DNA from: Coriobacteriia bacterium
GTDB lineage: Bacteria > Actinomycetota > Coriobacteriia > Anaerosomatales > PALSA-660
Reading direction: 5' to 3'
Length of the DNA stretch: 31,433 nucleotides
Assembly: GCA_023252055.1 (NCBI GenBank)
Contig: JAHEXP010000015.1
Coordinates: 1 to 31,433 of the forward strand
Part shown: positions 6,980-31,433 of the stretch, piece after piece
How the letters are laid out: every line of letters begins with the position of its first letter
Numbering within the stretch: the stretch's first letter is position 1
Made by a program: the position numbers and the translations under genes
Notes under the pieces: model-generated
Databases searched by the model: none
What the model was told of the DNA's origin: nothing
The model's input: only the letters and a program-made list of their open reading frames with translations

Positions 6980-7186
6980 CTCGCGCGCCCGCGATGTCGT
7001 ATGGTGGCGTCGGGGGTCGTTTCGAGGGCGTTTTGGCGTCGCGCCGCCGCGCTACACGGATCCTTACCAGCTTCTGGTCGATTCTTGATACATCCTTGAG
7101 ATGTTCTTATGCGGCGCGACGGTAAGTACTCCCTCAACGCGACAACAGGTTCGCGCGGACTTTCGACCGAGGGGAAGGCACAAGCC

Positions 7187-9433
7187 ATGTTCGATGTGGG
7201 GGTTCTGACGGCGATCGCGCTATGGATCGTCGGGATCATCGTGACCGTCGTGGTCGCGCTCAAAGTGCTCGGAGTTCGGGTCATCCGCTCCGATCAGGTC
7301 GGCGTGGTCGAGAAATGGTGGTCGCCCAAGGGTTCGCTGAAGGACTCGATCATCGCCATGAAGGGCGAGGCCGGCTACCAGCCGGAAGTGCTGCGCGGCG
7401 GTATCCATTTCCGCTCGCCGTTCATGTACCGCGTCCGCGTGATGCCGCTGATCACGATCCCGCAGGGCAAGATCGGCTATGTGTTCGCTCGTGACGGCAT
7501 CCCGATGCAGCCGGAGCAGACGCTCGGCCGCGTTGTGGAGTGCGGCAACTACCAGGACGTGCGCGGGTTCATGGCCAATGGCGGCCAGAAGGGCCCCCAG
7601 CGCTCGATCATCCGCGAGGGCACGTACGCGCTGAACCTGGCGCAGTTCATGGTCATCACGGAAAGCCACGTCTACTACCTCCCGATGGGCTACAAGGAGG
7701 AGGAGTCGTCGATCATGTCGATGGCGACCTACCTCGGCAGCGTCGGCGGGTTCAGCCCCGTGGTCATCAAGGGCGCCGAGGACCGTGTCGGCATCGTCAC
7801 CGTGCACGACGGCCCGTCGCTGCCGATGGGCGACATCATCGCTCCCTCGATCGGCGACGTCGCCGCCGAGCCGGACTATCACAACAACTTCCAGAACCCT
7901 GAGGCGTTCTTGAAGGCCGGCGGCTTCCGTGGGCGTCAGTACCAGGTCCTCACGGAGGGCACGTACTTCATCAACCGCCTGTTCGCGACCGTCGAGCTCA
8001 TCGAGAAGACGATCGTCCCCATCGGCTACGCCGGCGTAGTCGTCAGCTACATCGGGCCGAAGGGCGCCGACGTCTCGGGCGAGGAGTACCGCCACGGCGA
8101 ACTCGTCACGACCGGCTTCCGCGGCGTGTGGAACGAAGCGCTCATGCCGGGCAAGTACGCGTTCAACACGTACGCCGGCAAGGCGATCCTCGTCCCCACC
8201 ACGAACATCATCCTCAAGTGGATCAAGGGCGAGACCGGCGCGCACAACTTCGACGCCAACCTCTCGGAGATCGGGCTCATCACCAAAGACGCGTTCGAGC
8301 CGTCCCTGCCGCTGTCCGTGGTCATCCACATCGACTATAAGAAGGCCCCGCTCGTGATCCAGCGCTTTGGCGACATCGCGATGCTCGTCAACCAGACGCT
8401 CGACCCGATGGTGTCGAGCTACTTCAAGAACGTGGGCCAGACCAAGACGCTGATCGAGCTCATCCAGCAGCGAAACGAGATCCAGGCCCGAAGCAGCGAG
8501 GAGATGAAGGTGCGTTTCGCCCGATACAACCTCGAGTTGGAAGAGGTTCTCATCGGCACTCCGCGCTCCCCCGAGGGCGACACGAGGATCGAGACGATCC
8601 TCACCCAGCTGCGCGACCGGCAGATCGCCTTCGAGAAGCTCGAGACGTTCGACAAGCAAAAGATCGCCGCCGACAAGGAGCGCGAGCTCAAGCAGGCGAT
8701 GGCCGTCGCCGAGCAGCAGACGATGCTCACGCAGTCCGAGATCAACATCCAGGTGCAGGAGAACCAGGGCCGCGCCGAGCTTCAGCGGGCCGCCCAGGAC
8801 GCCGAGCGCGTGAAGACGCTGGCTCGAGGCGACGCCGAGAAGGTCAAGACGCTGGCCGCCGGTGAGGCCGAGAAGGTCAAGCTGCTGGCAGGCGCCGAGC
8901 AGGCGCGCATGAAGATGATCGCCGACGCCGAGGCCACCCGCATCCGCCTCACCGCGGAAGCGGACGCCGACCGCGAGGCCCGCGTGGGCATCGGCCGCGC
9001 GATAGCCATCGAGGAGCAGGTCAACGCATACGGCGGCCCGCAGCTCCAGCTGGCCCAGGACGTCATGACGAAGATGGCGCAGGCCATCGAGACGTCCAAG
9101 GTGCCGATCGTCCCGCAGACGGTCGTCAACATGGGCGGCGGCGAGGGCGGCGACACGACCGCGAGCAACAACGCGTTCGGCCTGCTGCTGGCACTCCTCA
9201 CCTCCGAGAAGCTCGGCGCTCCCATCGTCGGCGAGAAGCCGGATGCGAAGAGAAGCGCCCAGGTCACGGCGCTGCGAAGCTCAGTGATGGAAGGCGCGAC
9301 GAGGACTCCGGAGAACACCGCGGCAGCTGCCGCGGAGCCCTCGAAGCCGGCCGCGAAGGTCGAGCGCCCGATGGAGTCCCAGTCGCTGCCGCAGACGCAC
9401 TCGAAGGACGCAGCGGAGAAGCCGGCCAAGTAG
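7187..9433 (+). CDS. flotillin-like SPFH/Band-7 family protein (YqiK-like) with N-terminal TM helix and long C-terminal EA-rich coiled coil
   Basis: ORF 7109..9433 plus; probable start MFDVGVLTAIALWIVGII (7187) with a GGGGAAGG SD. SPFH region ...VVEKWWSPKGSL...IIREGTYALNL..., a second SPFH-like segment, then the flotillin coiled coil with ...AERVKTLARGDAEKVKTLAAGEAEKVKLLAGAEQARMKM... repeats. The alternative start is the 7109 ATG. Confidence 0.85.
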   Translation: MFDVGVLTAIALWIVGIIVTVVVALKVLGVRVIRSDQVGVVEKWWSPKGSLKDSIIAMKGEAGYQPEVLRGGIHFRSPFMYRVRVMPLITIPQGKIGYVFARDGIPMQPEQTLGRVVECGNYQDVRGFMANGGQKGPQRSIIREGTYALNLAQFMVITESHVYYLPMGYKEEESSIMSMATYLGSVGGFSPVVIKGAEDRVGIVTVHDGPSLPMGDIIAPSIGDVAAEPDYHNNFQNPEAFLKAGGFRGRQYQVLTEGTYFINRLFATVELIEKTIVPIGYAGVVVSYIGPKGADVSGEEYRHGELVTTGFRGVWNEALMPGKYAFNTYAGKAILVPTTNIILKWIKGETGAHNFDANLSEIGLITKDAFEPSLPLSVVIHIDYKKAPLVIQRFGDIAMLVNQTLDPMVSSYFKNVGQTKTLIELIQQRNEIQARSSEEMKVRFARYNLELEEVLIGTPRSPEGDTRIETILTQLRDRQIAFEKLETFDKQKIAADKERELKQAMAVAEQQTMLTQSEINIQVQENQGRAELQRAAQDAERVKTLARGDAEKVKTLAAGEAEKVKLLAGAEQARMKMIADAEATRIRLTAEADADREARVGIGRAIAIEEQVNAYGGPQLQLAQDVMTKMAQAIETSKVPIVPQTVVNMGGGEGGDTTASNNAFGLLLALLTSEKLGAPIVGEKPDAKRSAQVTALRSSVMEGATRTPENTAAAAAEPSKPAAKVERPMESQSLPQTHSKDAAEKPAK
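8798..8995 (+). repeat. in-frame 33-bp (11-aa) tandem repeats encoding the flotillin EA-repeat coiled coil
   Basis: Units gacgccgagcgcgtgaagacgctggctcgaggc / gacgccgagaaggtcaagacgctggccgccggt / gaggccgagaaggtcaagctgctggcaggcgcc ..., about six units, the first three best conserved. Confidence 0.5.
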
Positions 9434-29249: not shown

Positions 29250-29358
29250 GCGCTTCCCGTTCCTCCGTGAGCCTACGGCGGCTTCATGCCGCCTACGTGA
29301 TAGTTCGACTTCTGCGCGCCCTCCCCTGCTAGCGGGCGGCGACCGGCGGCGGAAAGAG

Positions 29359-29390
29359 AGAGGCCCCGGTCCGTGTGGACCGGGGCCTCT
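29359..29390 (-). terminator. intrinsic terminator of the multiheme cytochrome gene (AGAGGCCCCGGUCC acac GGACCGGGGCCUCU then UCUCUUUCC)
   Basis: Perfect 14-bp stem, 4-nt loop, 28 nt after the stop at 29418 on the minus strand, followed by a pyrimidine/U-rich run. Confidence 0.6.
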
Positions 29391-29417
29391 CGAAGTGGTG
29401 CGGTAAAGCGACGGATC

Positions 29418-31433
29418 CTAGTAGTGGCACTCGTAGACGGAGCAGCCCGAGTCGCCCGAGTGGAGCGTGTCCCAGTCGACCCCGCTCAAGTCCGCCGCCG
29501 CAGTACCCACGGTGCCGTGGTGGCAGTCGGAGCAGGCCCACCCGAGCGCTCCAACAGTGCCGCTCGGCGGATAGTAGTCGGAGTGCCAACTCATGCTGTT
29601 GTGGCAGTTGTTGCACTCGTCGTGGATCGCCGTATGCGACGCGAACGTCACGGTCGGGTGGCAGCCGGTGCTGCTACAGGTGGTGCTCCCCGTGAGCGTC
29701 TTGGCGCCGTCGTGGCAGACCGCACACGTCTTGCGAGCGTGTGTGGTGATCAGGTTCGTCTGGTGGCAACCCGCGCTGATGCACGAGTTCGACTTGGTGT
29801 GGCCCGTGTCGTAGGCCGGGTGCAGTGTCGTGGATGAAACCGTGGTCGGGTGGCAGCTGGCGCACGTAGCGCTGCCTGCGGCCACGGCGTTCTTGACGGT
29901 GGTCGAGGCGGACGCACCGTGGCACGTCGTGCAGGTCGTGCTGTGCTTGGCCGACACCGTTCCGTTCGACAGTTTCACAGAGGTCAGCGCGGTACCAGGA
30001 TGGCAACTCACACAGCCGTCACTGCGGGTCAGCGCGTGGATCGTGGGCAGGTCGTGCTGATCGTGGCAGCTCGCGCAGGTGGCGCCGCCGGCAGCGACCG
30101 CGTTCTTCGTGCGGGTCGGCGCGGAGGCCCCGTGGCAGGTCGCGCACAGCGCGTGCTTCGTGGCCACAGCGCCGCTCGAGAACGTGACCGTGTTGAGCGT
30201 GGTGCCCGTATGGCATGTCACGCACTGATCCGTGCGCGAGACCGCGTGGATGACCGGGATGTCGTGACCGTCGTGACAGCTGGCGCATGTGGCGCTGCCG
30301 GCAGCGACCGCGTTCTTGGTGCGGGTGGACGCCGATGCGCCGTGGCAGGTCGCGCACAGCGCGTGCTTCGTGGCCACCGCGCCGCTGGAGAATGTGACCG
30401 TGTTGAGCGTCGTGCCGGTGTGGCAGTCGACACACGAATCGGTGCGCGTCACCGGGTGGATCGCCGGCAGATCGTGGCCGTCGTGGCAGCTGGCGCATGT
30501 GGCGCTGCCTGCAGCGACCGCGTTCTTCGTGCGGGTGGAGGCCGATGCGCCGTGGCAGGTGGCGCAACTCGTGTGCTTGGTTGCCAGGGTCGTGCCGTCG
30601 GAGAACGTCACCGTGTTGAGTGTCGTGCCCTTGTGGCAGTCGATGCACTGGTCCGTGCGCGACACCGCGTGGATGACCGGCAGGTTATGAGCGTCGTGGC
30701 AGCTGGCGCAGGTGGCGCCGCCGGCAGCGACCGCGTTCTTGGTGCGGGTCGGAGCGCTCACGCCGTGGCATGTCGCGCACGCTGCATGCTTGGTCGCGAC
30801 CGCTCCGGTGGAGAACTTGATCGTGTTGAGATCGGTGCCGGCGTGGCAGGTCACGCAGTCATCGGTGCGGCTCACCGCGTGGATGACCGGCAGGTTATGC
30901 GCGTCGTGACAGCTGGCGCAGGTGGCGCCGCCGGCAGCGACCGCGTTCTTGGTGCGGGTCGGCGCGCTCACGCCGTGGCATGTCGCGCACGCTGCGTGCT
31001 TGGTCGCGACCGCTCCGGTGGAGAACTTGATCGTGTTGAGATCGGTGCCGGCGTGGCAGGTCACGCATGCGTCCGCACGCGCAACCGCGTGGATGACCGG
31101 CAGATCGTGGCCGTCGTGGCAGCTGGCGCAGGTGGCGCCGCCGGCAGCGACCGCGTTCTTCGTGCGGGTGGAGGCCGAGGCCCCGTGGCAGGTCGCGCAC
31201 AGCGCGTGCTTGGTTGCCAGGGTCGTGCCGTCAGAGAACGTCACCGTGTTGAGTGTCGTGCCCTTGTGGCAGTCGATGCACTGGTCCGTGCGGCTGACCG
31301 CGTGGATCACCGGGATGTTGTGGCCGTCGTGACAGCTGGCGCATGTGGCGCCGCCGGCAGCGACCGCGTTCTTGGTCCGGGTGGACGCCGATGCCCCGTG
31401 GCAGGTCGCGCACAGCGCGTGCTTCGTGGCCAC
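29418..31433 (-). CDS. giant modular multiheme c-type cytochrome, C-terminal 671 aa (N-terminus beyond window end); about 29 heme-binding motifs in visible part
   Basis: Minus-strand frame open from the window end to the stop at 29418. At least seven and a half consecutive 70-aa modules ATKHAxCATCHGASASTRTKNAVAAGGATCASCHDGHxLPVIHAVSRTDxCVxCHxGTxLNTVxFSxGxx. Each carries three CxxCH, the first two forming a 'doubled CXXCH' pair about 20 aa apart. The C-terminal 170 aa has further CxxCH plus CX3CH (CISAGCH, CSSTGCH) and CX4CH (CSVYECHY) motifs. Confidence 0.8.
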   Translation of the reverse strand: MATKHALCATCHGASASTRTKNAVAAGGATCASCHDGHNIPVIHAVSRTDQCIDCHKGTTLNTVTFSDGTTLATKHALCATCHGASASTRTKNAVAAGGATCASCHDGHDLPVIHAVARADACVTCHAGTDLNTIKFSTGAVATKHAACATCHGVSAPTRTKNAVAAGGATCASCHDAHNLPVIHAVSRTDDCVTCHAGTDLNTIKFSTGAVATKHAACATCHGVSAPTRTKNAVAAGGATCASCHDAHNLPVIHAVSRTDQCIDCHKGTTLNTVTFSDGTTLATKHTSCATCHGASASTRTKNAVAAGSATCASCHDGHDLPAIHPVTRTDSCVDCHTGTTLNTVTFSSGAVATKHALCATCHGASASTRTKNAVAAGSATCASCHDGHDIPVIHAVSRTDQCVTCHTGTTLNTVTFSSGAVATKHALCATCHGASAPTRTKNAVAAGGATCASCHDQHDLPTIHALTRSDGCVSCHPGTALTSVKLSNGTVSAKHSTTCTTCHGASASTTVKNAVAAGSATCASCHPTTVSSTTLHPAYDTGHTKSNSCISAGCHQTNLITTHARKTCAVCHDGAKTLTGSTTCSSTGCHPTVTFASHTAIHDECNNCHNSMSWHSDYYPPSGTVGALGWACSDCHHGTVGTAAADLSGVDWDTLHSGDSGCSVYECHY
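29830..31433. repeat. tandem 210-bp direct repeats (at least 7.6 copies, 85-97% identical; three sequence subtypes arranged A-A-B-C-C-B-A) encoding the cytochrome modules
   Basis: Exact 210-bp periodicity read from the sequence. Units begin tcgtg(g/a)cagctggcgca(g/t)gtggcgc... at 30061, 30271, 30481, 30691, 30901, 31111, 31321. A more diverged copy lies at 29830..30060. The array continues past the window end. Confidence 0.85.

What the first reader, a model, noticed from the sequence alone, without database searches (positions are those of the whole stretch)
30061..31433. Near-perfect 210-bp tandem array with mosaic A-A-B-C-C-B-A subtype order: recombination-prone, assembly-sensitive locus
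At the DNA level the cytochrome modules are exact 210-bp direct repeats. Adjacent copies 30691..30900 and 30901..31110 differ at only a handful of positions. Copies 30481 and 31111 share a distinct variant (…cttggttgccagggtcgtgccgtc…). Copies 30061, 30271 and 31321 share another (…cttcgtggccac(a/c)gcgccgct…).

This mosaic implies repeated unequal crossover or gene conversion within the gene. Module number, and therefore heme number and wire length, is likely variable between strains.

For short-read assemblies a 210-bp unit with over 90% identity across more than 1.5 kb risks repeat collapse or expansion. The true copy number here needs long-read confirmation.
Basis: seen in the sequence. Interest (0 to 1): 0.6.

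Follow-up and report, generated by a model that had tools for sequence, protein, structure and literature searches.

The report
Mosaic triheme-module repeat in giant cytochrome
The last 1.5 kb of this contig is a real but only about 82%-conserved tandem array, in which each 210 or 213 bp unit encodes a three-haem module of a giant multihaem cytochrome from an uncultured Coriobacteriia-like bacterium; recombination has shuffled the units, and the assembly breaks inside the array.

Summary
The repeat exists but is overstated. Tandem Repeats Finder reports 6.7 copies of period 210 at 82% matches. Two units are 213 bp, not 210. The best pairs are 90-91% identical and different subtypes are 73-85% identical.

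Recombination is well supported. Synonymous divergence switches four- to six-fold inside single units. Shared tracts beat all 5000 permutations.

The array lies in a minus-strand gene (29418-31433) with its N-terminus missing. The 671 residues visible carry 29 haem-binding motifs that use all 58 cysteines. Seven 70/71-residue modules each have three CXXCH motifs and three further histidines.

The window is a whole 31,433-bp contig, so the array is cut by the contig end. All five short-read contigs that carry this gene or a homologue break inside it.

Two long contigs from related genomes have the gene whole at the same chromosomal position (1829 and 2180 aa). They have different modules amplified and are only 29-34% identical to this protein, while the flanking genes are 72-88% identical.

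It resembles the Geobacter GSU1996 "nanowire" cytochrome but fails that family's tests. No strain-level relatives or reads were available, so copy number remains at least 7.5.

The parts
29418..31433 (-). 3' part (671 codons plus stop) of a giant multihaem c-type cytochrome gene. The N-terminus is missing because the contig ends.
   Evidence: The ORF runs off the window end. It has 26 CXXCH and 3 CX4CH motifs that use all 58 Cys, with 59 His and 1 Met. Pfam Cytochrome_C7 scores 99.9 bits in 8 stretches and Paired_CXXCH_1 scores 108 bits. GC3 is 0.88, like the neighbouring genes.
29955..31433 (-). Tandem array of seven complete triheme modules, plus the last codon of an eighth that is cut by the contig end.
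   Evidence: TRF period 210, 6.7 copies, 82% matches. Module boundaries come from the protein repeat. Each module scores 97-102 bits against the module profile.
31218..31430 (-). Module U1 (71 aa, 213 bp). Its head resembles U6 and its tail resembles U4.
   Evidence: U1-U4 synonymous divergence (pS) is 0.08 in the tail and 0.49 in the head. U1-U6 pS is 0.12 in the head and 0.50 in the tail.
31008..31217 (-). Module U2 (70 aa). Its tail resembles U3.
   Evidence: U2/U3 share a run of 37 concordant polymorphic sites, reached by 0 of 5000 permutations.
30798..31007 (-). Module U3 (70 aa). Its head resembles U4 and its tail resembles U2.
   Evidence: U3-U4 pS is 0.12 in the head and 0.47 in the tail.
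30585..30797 (-). Module U4 (71 aa, 213 bp). Its head resembles U3 and its tail resembles U1.
30375..30584 (-). Module U5 (70 aa).
30165..30374 (-). Module U6 (70 aa). Its head resembles U1.
29955..30164 (-). Module U7 (70 aa), the most diverged full module.
   Evidence: 70-77% nucleotide identity to the other modules. Scores 97 bits against the module profile.
29742..29954 (-). Degenerate eighth module. The first two CXXCH motifs are kept; the third site is CX4CH.
   Evidence: Module profile hit at residues 494-564, 33 bits. About 50% nucleotide identity to the other units.
29421..29741 (-). Non-repeated C-terminal haem domain ending in CSVYECHY.
   Evidence: Its last ~75 residues are nearly identical to the C-terminus of P0003, whose upstream part is different. 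It carries further CXXCH and CX4CH motifs.
30787..30857 (.). Longest exact intra-array tract (71 bp), identical to 30997-31067. It spans a module boundary.
30601..30659 (.). 59-bp exact tract identical to 31234-31292, 633 bp (three units) away. It links the two 213-bp 'B' units.
31393..31433 (.). Terminal 41 nt of the contig, an exact copy of 30127-30167.
   Evidence: The other contig end has no such repeat.
29358..29391 (-). 15-bp perfect GC-rich hairpin 27 nt downstream of the cytochrome stop codon. Probable transcription terminator.
   Evidence: Fold energy -37.7 kcal/mol, z = -5.9, reached by 0 of 200 shuffles. The simple terminator scan does not call it because the U-tract is weak.

Best explanation
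SHOWN
- The contig ends inside a chromosomal gene for a very large c-type multihaem cytochrome of an uncultured Coriobacteriia-class actinobacterium.
- The repeat is the coding sequence of at least 7.5 tandem modules of 70 or 71 residues.
- Each module has three CXXCH haem-attachment sites and three further invariant histidines. That is enough for bis-histidine ligation of three haems per module.
- The DNA copies are old. Synonymous distance dS between modules is 0.3-1.0, and they are under purifying selection (dN/dS 0.14-0.53).
- Recent recombination has overwritten patches of them. One 210-bp tandem duplication or exchange produced the two 'C' units.
- Non-reciprocal exchanges link non-adjacent units: the two 213-bp 'B' units 633 bp apart, and the A units 1056 bp apart.
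- This gives head and tail segments with different nearest relatives, and the A-B-C-C-B-A-A order when read along the gene.

INFERRED
- The modules string haems into one long electron-conducting chain on a secreted, cell-surface protein used for extracellular electron transfer. This is by analogy with cytochrome c7 and GSU1996.
- Intragenic recombination changes module number over evolutionary time.
- The contig broke here because further, more similar units lie upstream.
For: Gene and modules:
- ORF and motif stoichiometry: 29 motifs use 58 of 58 Cys, with 59 His and 1 Met.
- Pfam Cytochrome_C7 and Paired_CXXCH_1 score above their cut-offs.
- The haem Cys/His and two further His are invariant across 18 modules from three genes (H4 and H43 of the module). 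The remaining distal His is present in every module but at a shifted position.

Recombination:
- Head/tail identity switches, for example U1-U4 at 76% in the first third and 98.6% in the last third.
- Nearest-neighbour map.
- Synonymous divergence pS switches 0.49 to 0.08, 0.12 to 0.47 and 0.12 to 0.50 within units.
- Runs of 37 and 33 concordant polymorphic sites were never reached in 5000 permutations.
- Exact tracts of 71, 59, 53 and 49 bp sit against an 82% background.

Contig end:
- A 100% identical DnaE is recorded on a contig of exactly 31433 bp.
- The contig has a terminal 41-nt repeat.
- Contig L001, carrying the closest homologue, ends exactly at the end of a 113-bp exact repeat in its own 213-bp array.
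- Contigs L046, L047 and L048 are also cut inside the gene.

Evolutionary turnover:
- The syntenic genes in L043 (2180 aa; 198-bp arrays of 8.4 and 4.8 copies) and L044 (1829 aa; 453-bp array of 4.9 copies) are 29-34% identical to this protein. The flanks are 72-88% identical.
- Modules cluster by gene. Mean identity is 0.81 within this gene and 0.44 between genes.

Secretion:
- Homologues P0001, L044 and L048 start with a signal-peptide-like N-terminus and Ig-like domains.

Physiology of relatives:
- Cultivated Coriobacteriia of the order Anaerosomatales encode 17-18 multihaem cytochromes, and one grows by Fe(III) reduction (PMC9686372).
Against: - No reads were available, so the unit order and count in the contig cannot be verified.
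- The N-terminus is missing, so secretion of this protein is not shown.
- No cytochrome-maturation or other electron-transfer genes lie in the 31 kb. The neighbours are housekeeping genes.
- No solved structure is detectably related by sequence. The best profile E-values are 6e-5 to 8e-3 and rest largely on short stretches around the haem-binding motifs.
- The AlphaFold model of three modules is unreliable, with pLDDT 55.6. The haem-chain geometry is therefore untested.
- The terminal repeat is only 41 nt, shorter than the final k-mers of common assemblers. The cause of the break is inferred, not shown.
Confidence: 0.75

Rival explanations
1. Assembly artefact. The visible order and number of units is a wrong path through a repeat-tangled assembly graph (chimeric in-frame joins), so the A-B-C-C-B-A mosaic is not the real gene.
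For: - The contig ends in the array.
- Units share exact tracts of 41-71 bp that small k-mers cannot resolve.
- Every short-read contig of this gene family is broken.
- The nested pairing of subtypes is unusual for simple tandem duplication.
Against: - No exact repeat exceeds 71 bp, so k of 77 or more and 100-150-nt reads give a unique path.
- The frame and all 21 CXXCH motifs and 21 extra histidines of the seven modules are intact.
- Long contigs from relatives show equally mosaic arrays with non-adjacent exact matches at offsets of 3 and 6 units.
- Nested pairing is 1 of 15 possible pairings of six units, so it is not significant in itself.
Confidence: 0.1
2. Duplication-only history. The subtype pattern arose purely from successive unequal crossovers (duplications and deletions of whole units or blocks) without gene conversion between non-adjacent units.
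For: - The C-C pair is adjacent (offset 210) and could be a simple tandem duplication.
Against: - The B units (633 bp apart) and the A units (1056 bp apart) are similar while the units between them are not. Block duplication would copy the intervening units too.
The R4/R5 and R3/R6 runs give global p = 0.0002 and 0.005.
- TRF finds no better higher-order period; period 423 scores 79% against 82% for period 210.
Confidence: 0.12
3. The subtypes are functional classes kept alike by selection on the protein (convergence or constraint), not by recombination.
For: - Modules are under purifying selection, with dN/dS 0.14-0.53.
- Tails differ in residues near the third haem, such as CIDCHK versus CVTCHA.
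Against: - Members of a subtype share synonymous sites. pS is 0.08-0.12 in shared segments against 0.4-0.5 in the rest of the same units.
- They share exact tracts of 59-71 bp.
Confidence: 0.03
4. The extreme divergence from the genes at the same position in related genomes reflects replacement of the whole gene by horizontal transfer or paralogue swapping, not in-place module turnover.
For: - The cytochrome is 29-34% identical while the flanks are 72-88% identical.
- The gene is inverted in L048.
- C-termini differ between loci.
- P0003 shares only the last ~75 residues with this protein.
Against: - N-termini of L044, L048 and P0001 are alike, with a signal peptide and Ig-like domains.
- All the genes belong to one family by whole-protein search.
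- GC3 of the gene matches its neighbours.
- Both processes may act together.
Confidence: 0.25

Closest known systems
GSU1996 / OmcQ family of Geobacter sulfurreducens ('nanowire' dodecahaem cytochrome; TIGR04257 c7-type triheme domain)
   Same: - A single polypeptide made of tandem triheme modules of ~70-80 residues joined by short linkers.
- It is proposed to have arisen by duplication and concatenation of c7 modules (PMC10138318; PMC11492766).
- Pfam Cytochrome_C7 matches every module here.
   Different: - Each GSU1996 domain has one His-Met haem. The modules here contain no methionine and have six histidines each.
- TIGR04257 scores 33.5 bits, below its cut-off of 40.
- The module profile hits 3OV0 only at E=0.0076.
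- There are at least 29 haem motifs here against 12.
- The host is a Gram-positive-type actinobacterium, not a Geobacter.
Triheme cytochrome c7 (PpcA-E) and the tetrahaem c3 superfamily
   Same: - Three haems in ~70 residues, all bis-His (PMC10138318).
- Pfam Cytochrome_C7, Cytochrom_c3_2 and Cytochrom_CIII match.
   Different: - Those are single-domain periplasmic proteins.
- No significant direct sequence match to any solved c7 or c3 structure.
Uncharacterised giant multihaem cytochromes of Coriobacteriia and other MAGs (P0001, P0002, L043, L044; 19 cluster representatives at E<=1e-30)
   Same: - Same module family, at 37-53% identity to this gene's first module.
- Same tandem organisation: periods 198, 213 and 216 bp.
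- Same chromosomal position in L043, L044, L046 and L047, and inverted in L048.
   Different: - Each gene has amplified its own module variant. L044 has amplified a different 151-residue unit.
- The third haem site varies between CXXCH, CX4CH and CX5CH.
- Whole-protein identity is 29-43% at most.
Tandem repeats in multihaem cytochromes of Borg elements (Methanoperedens)
   Same: Rapidly evolving tandem repeats inside extracellular multihaem cytochrome genes (PMC9879509).
   Different: Borg repeats are short T/P-rich disordered inserts that never disrupt functional domains. Here the repeat unit is the haem-binding domain itself.
Concerted evolution of tandem domain repeats in bacterial surface proteins (for example streptococcal alpha C/Rib, staphylococcal SasG/Aap); recalled from my own knowledge, not tested here
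   Same: In-frame repeats of hundreds of bp, mosaic units from intragenic recombination, copy number varying between isolates, and assemblies breaking in the array.
   Different: - Those repeats are often more than 95% identical, whereas these are 70-91%.
- Those are adhesins, not redox proteins.

Membership tests
c-type multihaem cytochrome | Multiple CXXCH (or CXnCH) haem-attachment motifs, with cysteines accounted for by the motifs | tested here: met
   26 CXXCH and 3 CX4CH motifs use all 58 Cys. There are 59 His.
c-type multihaem cytochrome | Export signal (haem is attached outside the cytoplasm) | tested here: inconclusive
   The N-terminus lies beyond the contig end. Homologues P0001, L044 and L048 begin with signal-peptide-like sequences.
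Pfam PF14522 Cytochrome_C7 | Score above the gathering cut-off (24.8 bits) | tested here: met
   99.9 bits in 8 stretches.
TIGR04257 nanowire_3heme (GSU1996-type triheme domain) | Score above the curated cut-off (40 bits) | tested here: not met
   33.5 bits, with no individually significant stretch.
GSU1996 family | One His-Met-ligated haem in each triheme domain | tested here: not met
   No Met in any of the seven modules. The single Met in the 671 residues lies in the C-terminal domain. The defining feature is taken from PMC10138318.
GSU1996 family | Tandem triheme domains on one chain joined by short linkers | tested here: met
   Seven contiguous 70/71-residue modules with three CXXCH each.
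GSU1996 family | Detectable sequence or fold similarity to the solved structure (3OV0) | tested here: inconclusive
   The profile search gives E=0.0076 for 3ov0 and 8.5e-4 for 3ouq, each a single ~53-residue stretch. The AlphaFold model is too poor (pLDDT 55.6) for a fold search.
DmsE/MtrA decahaem family (TIGR03508) | Score above the curated cut-off (192.2 bits) | tested here: not met
   108.1 bits.
Recombining tandem coding repeat (concerted evolution / gene conversion) | Shared tracts between units longer than expected given site variability, and discordant ancestry of segments within a unit | tested here: met
   Runs of 37 and 33 concordant polymorphic sites were reached by 0 of 5000 permutations. 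pS switches 4-6-fold within units.
Variable-number tandem repeat locus | Different unit counts in closely related strains | not testable with these tools
   The closest homologue by sequence is only 42% identical. Genomes with 85-88% identical DnaE carry different arrays at the same locus.
Assembly-breaking repeat | Contigs terminate inside the array | tested here: met
   The window is a whole contig. L001 ends at a 113-bp exact repeat. L046, L047 and L048 are cut in the gene.

The most novel reading that the evidence does not exclude
This chromosomal position holds a hypervariable, surface-exposed electron conduit. Intragenic recombination continually adds, removes and reshuffles haem modules. 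Even genomes with about 85-88% identical housekeeping proteins then carry cytochromes with different module types, lengths (1829 aa, 2180 aa, unknown here) and haem counts (about 72 to more than 87 motifs). That would make wire length or surface chemistry a rapidly tunable trait under diversifying selection, for example to match envelope thickness or mineral surfaces, or to escape phages that use the cytochrome as a receptor. It would be the redox counterpart of variable-repeat adhesins.
Probability: 0.15. Interest if true: 0.65.

Novelty: new variant of a known kind. Interest (0 to 1): 0.4.

Why it matters
Three consequences follow.

1. For anyone using this MAG, the gene is truncated by the assembly. 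Any haem count, length or annotation taken from it is a lower bound. The same holds for every short-read copy of this family that I could find.

2. It gives a clear example, at the nucleotide level, of how giant multihaem cytochromes grow. They amplify and exchange a triheme module in place. That process has been proposed for GSU1996 but rarely seen 'in action' with synonymous-site evidence.

3. The locus is far more variable than its housekeeping flanks across related Coriobacteriia-like genomes. This marks the protein as a likely environment-facing component, in a lineage with one cultivated Fe(III)-respiring member. It is a sensible target for long-read population studies of extracellular electron transfer.

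Tried and rejected
- **Fixed 210-bp register.** It gives meaningless identities for units separated by a 213-bp unit. I replaced it with indel-aware units.
- **Exact look-ups of the source contig.** Both the FAH neighbour and the 100% identical DnaE are absent from the contig index. The accession and the rest of the MAG could not be retrieved.
- **Scans of genome contigs and metagenome contigs with the cytochrome.** Only relatives at 28% identity or less were found. This gave no strain-level comparison.
- **PDB sequence searches.** phmmer found nothing. The module profile gave only weak hits, largely confined to short stretches around the haem-binding motifs.
- **AlphaFold2 of three modules with a 27-row alignment.** pLDDT was 55.6 and pTM 0.29. 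I judged it too poor and ran no fold search.
- **Is P0001's contig the missing 5' half of this gene?** Rejected. Its modules are about 50% identical to these, and its neighbours are leucine-biosynthesis genes.
- **Higher-order periodicity.** Rejected; TRF period 423 is no better than 210.
- **Symmetry of the A-B-C-C-B-A order as a signal.** It is 1 of 15 possible pairings of six units, so not significant.
- **Simple terminator scan.** It missed the hairpin downstream of the gene. Folding shows it.
Full report
**1. Is the repeat there?**

Yes, but it is less perfect than described. Tandem Repeats Finder reports one array at 30023-31433 with period 210, 6.7 copies, 82% matches and 3% indels.

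- Copies 30691 and 30901 are 91.9% identical (17 differences).
- Copies 30061 and 30271 are 84.3% identical.
- The two 'B' copies (30481 and 31111) align at only 32.9%, because a 3-bp insertion puts them out of phase.

- The B string lies at 30576 and 31209, 633 bp apart.
- The A string lies at 30156 and 30366. Its first 12 nt recur at 31422-31433, the last bases of the window.

**2. What the units are**

The array lies in a minus-strand ORF, 29418-31433, that runs off the window end. Its 671 residues contain 26 CXXCH and 3 CX4CH motifs. Together these use all 58 cysteines. There are 59 histidines and a single methionine.

The protein repeat defines seven modules:
- U1 31218-31430
- U2 31008-31217
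- U3 30798-31007
- U4 30585-30797
- U5 30375-30584
- U6 30165-30374
- U7 29955-30164

U1 and U4 have 71 residues (213 bp) and the rest have 70. Each module has three CXXCH motifs and three further histidines.

A degenerate eighth module (29742-29954) and a non-repeated C-terminal haem domain follow. A 15-bp perfect hairpin lies 27 nt past the stop codon.

Pfam Cytochrome_C7 (99.9 bits, 8 stretches) and Paired_CXXCH_1 score above their cut-offs.

**3. The mosaic**

In the protein register, whole modules are 70-86% identical, but identity is very uneven along them:

| Pair | Segment | Identity |
|---|---|---|
| U3-U4 | first third | 97% |
| U3-U4 | last third | 62% |
| U1-U4 | first third | 76% |
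| U1-U4 | last third | 98.6% |
| U1-U6 | first third | 97% |
| U2-U3 | last third | 94% |

A nearest-neighbour scan shows a switch at about two-thirds of each module.

- C-C is 91.4% identical.
- B-B is 90.1%.
- A-A is 84.3%, and 97.2% for the truncated last copy.
- Different types are 73-85% identical.

So the order A-A-B-C-C-B-A on the plus strand is confirmed. 'Near-perfect' and 'over 90% across 1.5 kb' are not.

**4. Recombination rather than selection or chance**

Whole-module synonymous distances (dS) are 0.29-1.07, with dN/dS 0.14-0.53. The modules are therefore old and constrained.

Within single modules, synonymous divergence (pS) switches sharply:

| Pair | Head pS | Tail pS |
|---|---|---|
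| U1-U4 | 0.49 | 0.08 |
| U3-U4 | 0.12 | 0.47 |
| U1-U6 | 0.12 | 0.50 |

I ran a GENECONV-style permutation of the polymorphic columns. It gives runs of 37 (U2/U3) and 33 (U1/U4) concordant sites, which none of 5000 permutations reached.

Exact tracts of 71, 59, 53 and 49 bp stand out against the 82% background.

Similar units are often not adjacent; the offsets are 633 and 1056 bp. Non-reciprocal exchange is therefore needed in addition to simple tandem duplication.

Codons 21-30 of the module (NAVAAGGATC) have three-fold lower synonymous diversity than the rest: 0.09 against about 0.3. This stretch may be the preferred pairing site for exchange.

**5. Assembly**

A DnaE protein 100% identical to the one in the window is on record from NCBI on a contig of exactly 31,433 bp. 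The window is therefore a complete contig, and the array is cut by its end.

The last 41 nt repeat 30127-30167 exactly, and the other contig end has no such repeat.

Within the visible array no exact repeat exceeds 71 bp. Collapse of the visible units is thus unlikely with modern read lengths. The risk that materialised is breakage.

The same happens elsewhere:
- The closest homologue's contig (L001, a Coriobacteriia MAG) ends exactly at the end of a 113-bp exact repeat in its own 213-bp array.
- Three syntenic short-read contigs (L046, L047 from a k141 assembly, and L048) are all cut inside the gene.

Only two long contigs carry it whole: L043 (648 kb) and L044 (1.3 Mb). L044's array contains a 448-bp exact repeat that short reads could not span.

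**6. Relatives and evolution**

DnaE places the contig among uncultured Coriobacteriia. Named hits reach 78% identity, and Anaerosomatales 63%.

L043 and L044 share the gene order cytochrome-FAH-MFS-x-TrpR-DnaE-his operon with the window. Comparison with the window gives:

| Protein | Identity to window |
|---|---|
| FAH | 85-88% |
| DnaE | 85-88% |
| TrpR | 78-81% |
| MFS | 72% |
| Cytochrome | 29-34% |

The cytochromes also have different arrays:
- L043 has 198-bp units in arrays of 8.4 and 4.8 copies. The gene product is 2180 aa, with about 87 haem motifs in the 2089 residues seen.
- L044 has 453-bp units in 4.9 copies. The product is 1829 aa, with about 72 motifs.

Modules from different genes cluster by gene. 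Mean identity is 0.81 within this gene and 0.44 between genes. Each lineage has therefore amplified or homogenised its own variant.

A whole-library search finds 19 cluster representatives at E<=1e-30 and 117 at E<=1e-10. Many of these are 1,400-3,657 aa long.

No relative closer than 42-43% identity exists in any collection searched. Strain-level copy-number variation could therefore not be tested.

**7. Function and comparison with known systems**

The nearest characterised analogue is GSU1996 of Geobacter. It is a chain of four c7-type triheme domains with closely packed haems, thought to have arisen by duplication of c7 modules (PMC10138318; PMC11492766).

This protein works like that on paper but is not a member of the family:
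- TIGR04257 scores below its cut-off, 33.5 against 40 bits.
- The modules lack the His-Met haem that marks GSU1996 domains.
- Matches to solved structures are weak.

An AlphaFold model of three modules was too uncertain to use, with pLDDT 55.6.

Homologues begin with a signal-peptide-like segment and Ig-like domains. Cultivated Anaerosomatales carry 17-18 multihaem cytochromes, and one isolate respires Fe(III) (PMC9686372). A surface electron conduit is therefore the most likely role, but this is inference.

Tandem repeats reported in Borg cytochromes are a different thing. They are short disordered inserts outside the haem domains (PMC9879509).

**8. Verdict**

- The recombination reading is supported.
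- The assembly warning is correct, in the form of contig breakage.
- Strain-level variability and wire function remain untested.

This is a new variant of a known kind of protein, a modular multihaem cytochrome. It has a clear nucleotide-level record of module exchange and sits at a locus that is unusually variable among related genomes.

Noticed in passing
window 29418-31433 compared with L043:1-6272, L044:860-6349, L046:1-501, L047:1-1182 and L048:2-2257: The cytochrome at this conserved chromosomal position is 29-34% identical between genomes whose flanking proteins are 72-88% identical. It has different repeat units (210/213, 198 and 453 bp) and different C-termini, and it is inverted in L048.
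   Followed up: partly
window, codons 21-30 of each module (for example 30700-30752, 30910-30950, 31120-31160): The stretch encoding NAVAAGGATC is nearly invariant at synonymous sites across all seven modules (0.09, against 0.28-0.36 elsewhere). It holds many of the 30-53-bp exact matches. It may be a recombination pairing site or be under nucleotide-level constraint.
   Followed up: partly
window 29358-29391 (- strand): A perfect 15-bp GC-rich hairpin lies just after the cytochrome stop codon, followed by a weak U-tract (z = -5.9 against shuffles). It is a likely terminator that the consensus scan misses.
   Followed up: yes
window 8798-8889: A 33-bp tandem repeat of 2.8 copies at 81% matches lies inside a 774-residue SPFH/Band 7-domain ORF (7109-9433, + strand).
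   Followed up: no
L043:2820-4486; P0002 modules; window modules: The third haem site of the homologous module varies between genes. It is CXXCH here and at the end of P0001, CX4CH in P0002, and CX5CH (CAAVAPCH) in L043.
   Followed up: partly
L002:7000-8400: The P0002 gene continues in other reading frames after its called stop, and neighbouring genes are fused or split. This looks like indel errors of a noisy long-read assembly, so P0002's 1050-aa length is an underestimate.
   Followed up: partly
window 29421-29650 compared with P0003 residues 320-395: The last ~75 residues (…HDECNNCHNSMSWHSD…CSVYECHY) are almost identical to the C-terminus of P0003, an otherwise different cytochrome fragment from an ENA metagenome. 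This suggests a conserved C-terminal cap domain exchanged between, or retained across, divergent genes.
   Followed up: partly
window 1-29300: The rest of the contig is core housekeeping: PFK, AccA/AccD, a DeoC-type aldolase, NadE, a full his operon, HisS-like, DnaE, TrpR, MFS and FAH. There are no cytochrome-maturation or other electron-transfer genes near the cytochrome.
   Followed up: yes
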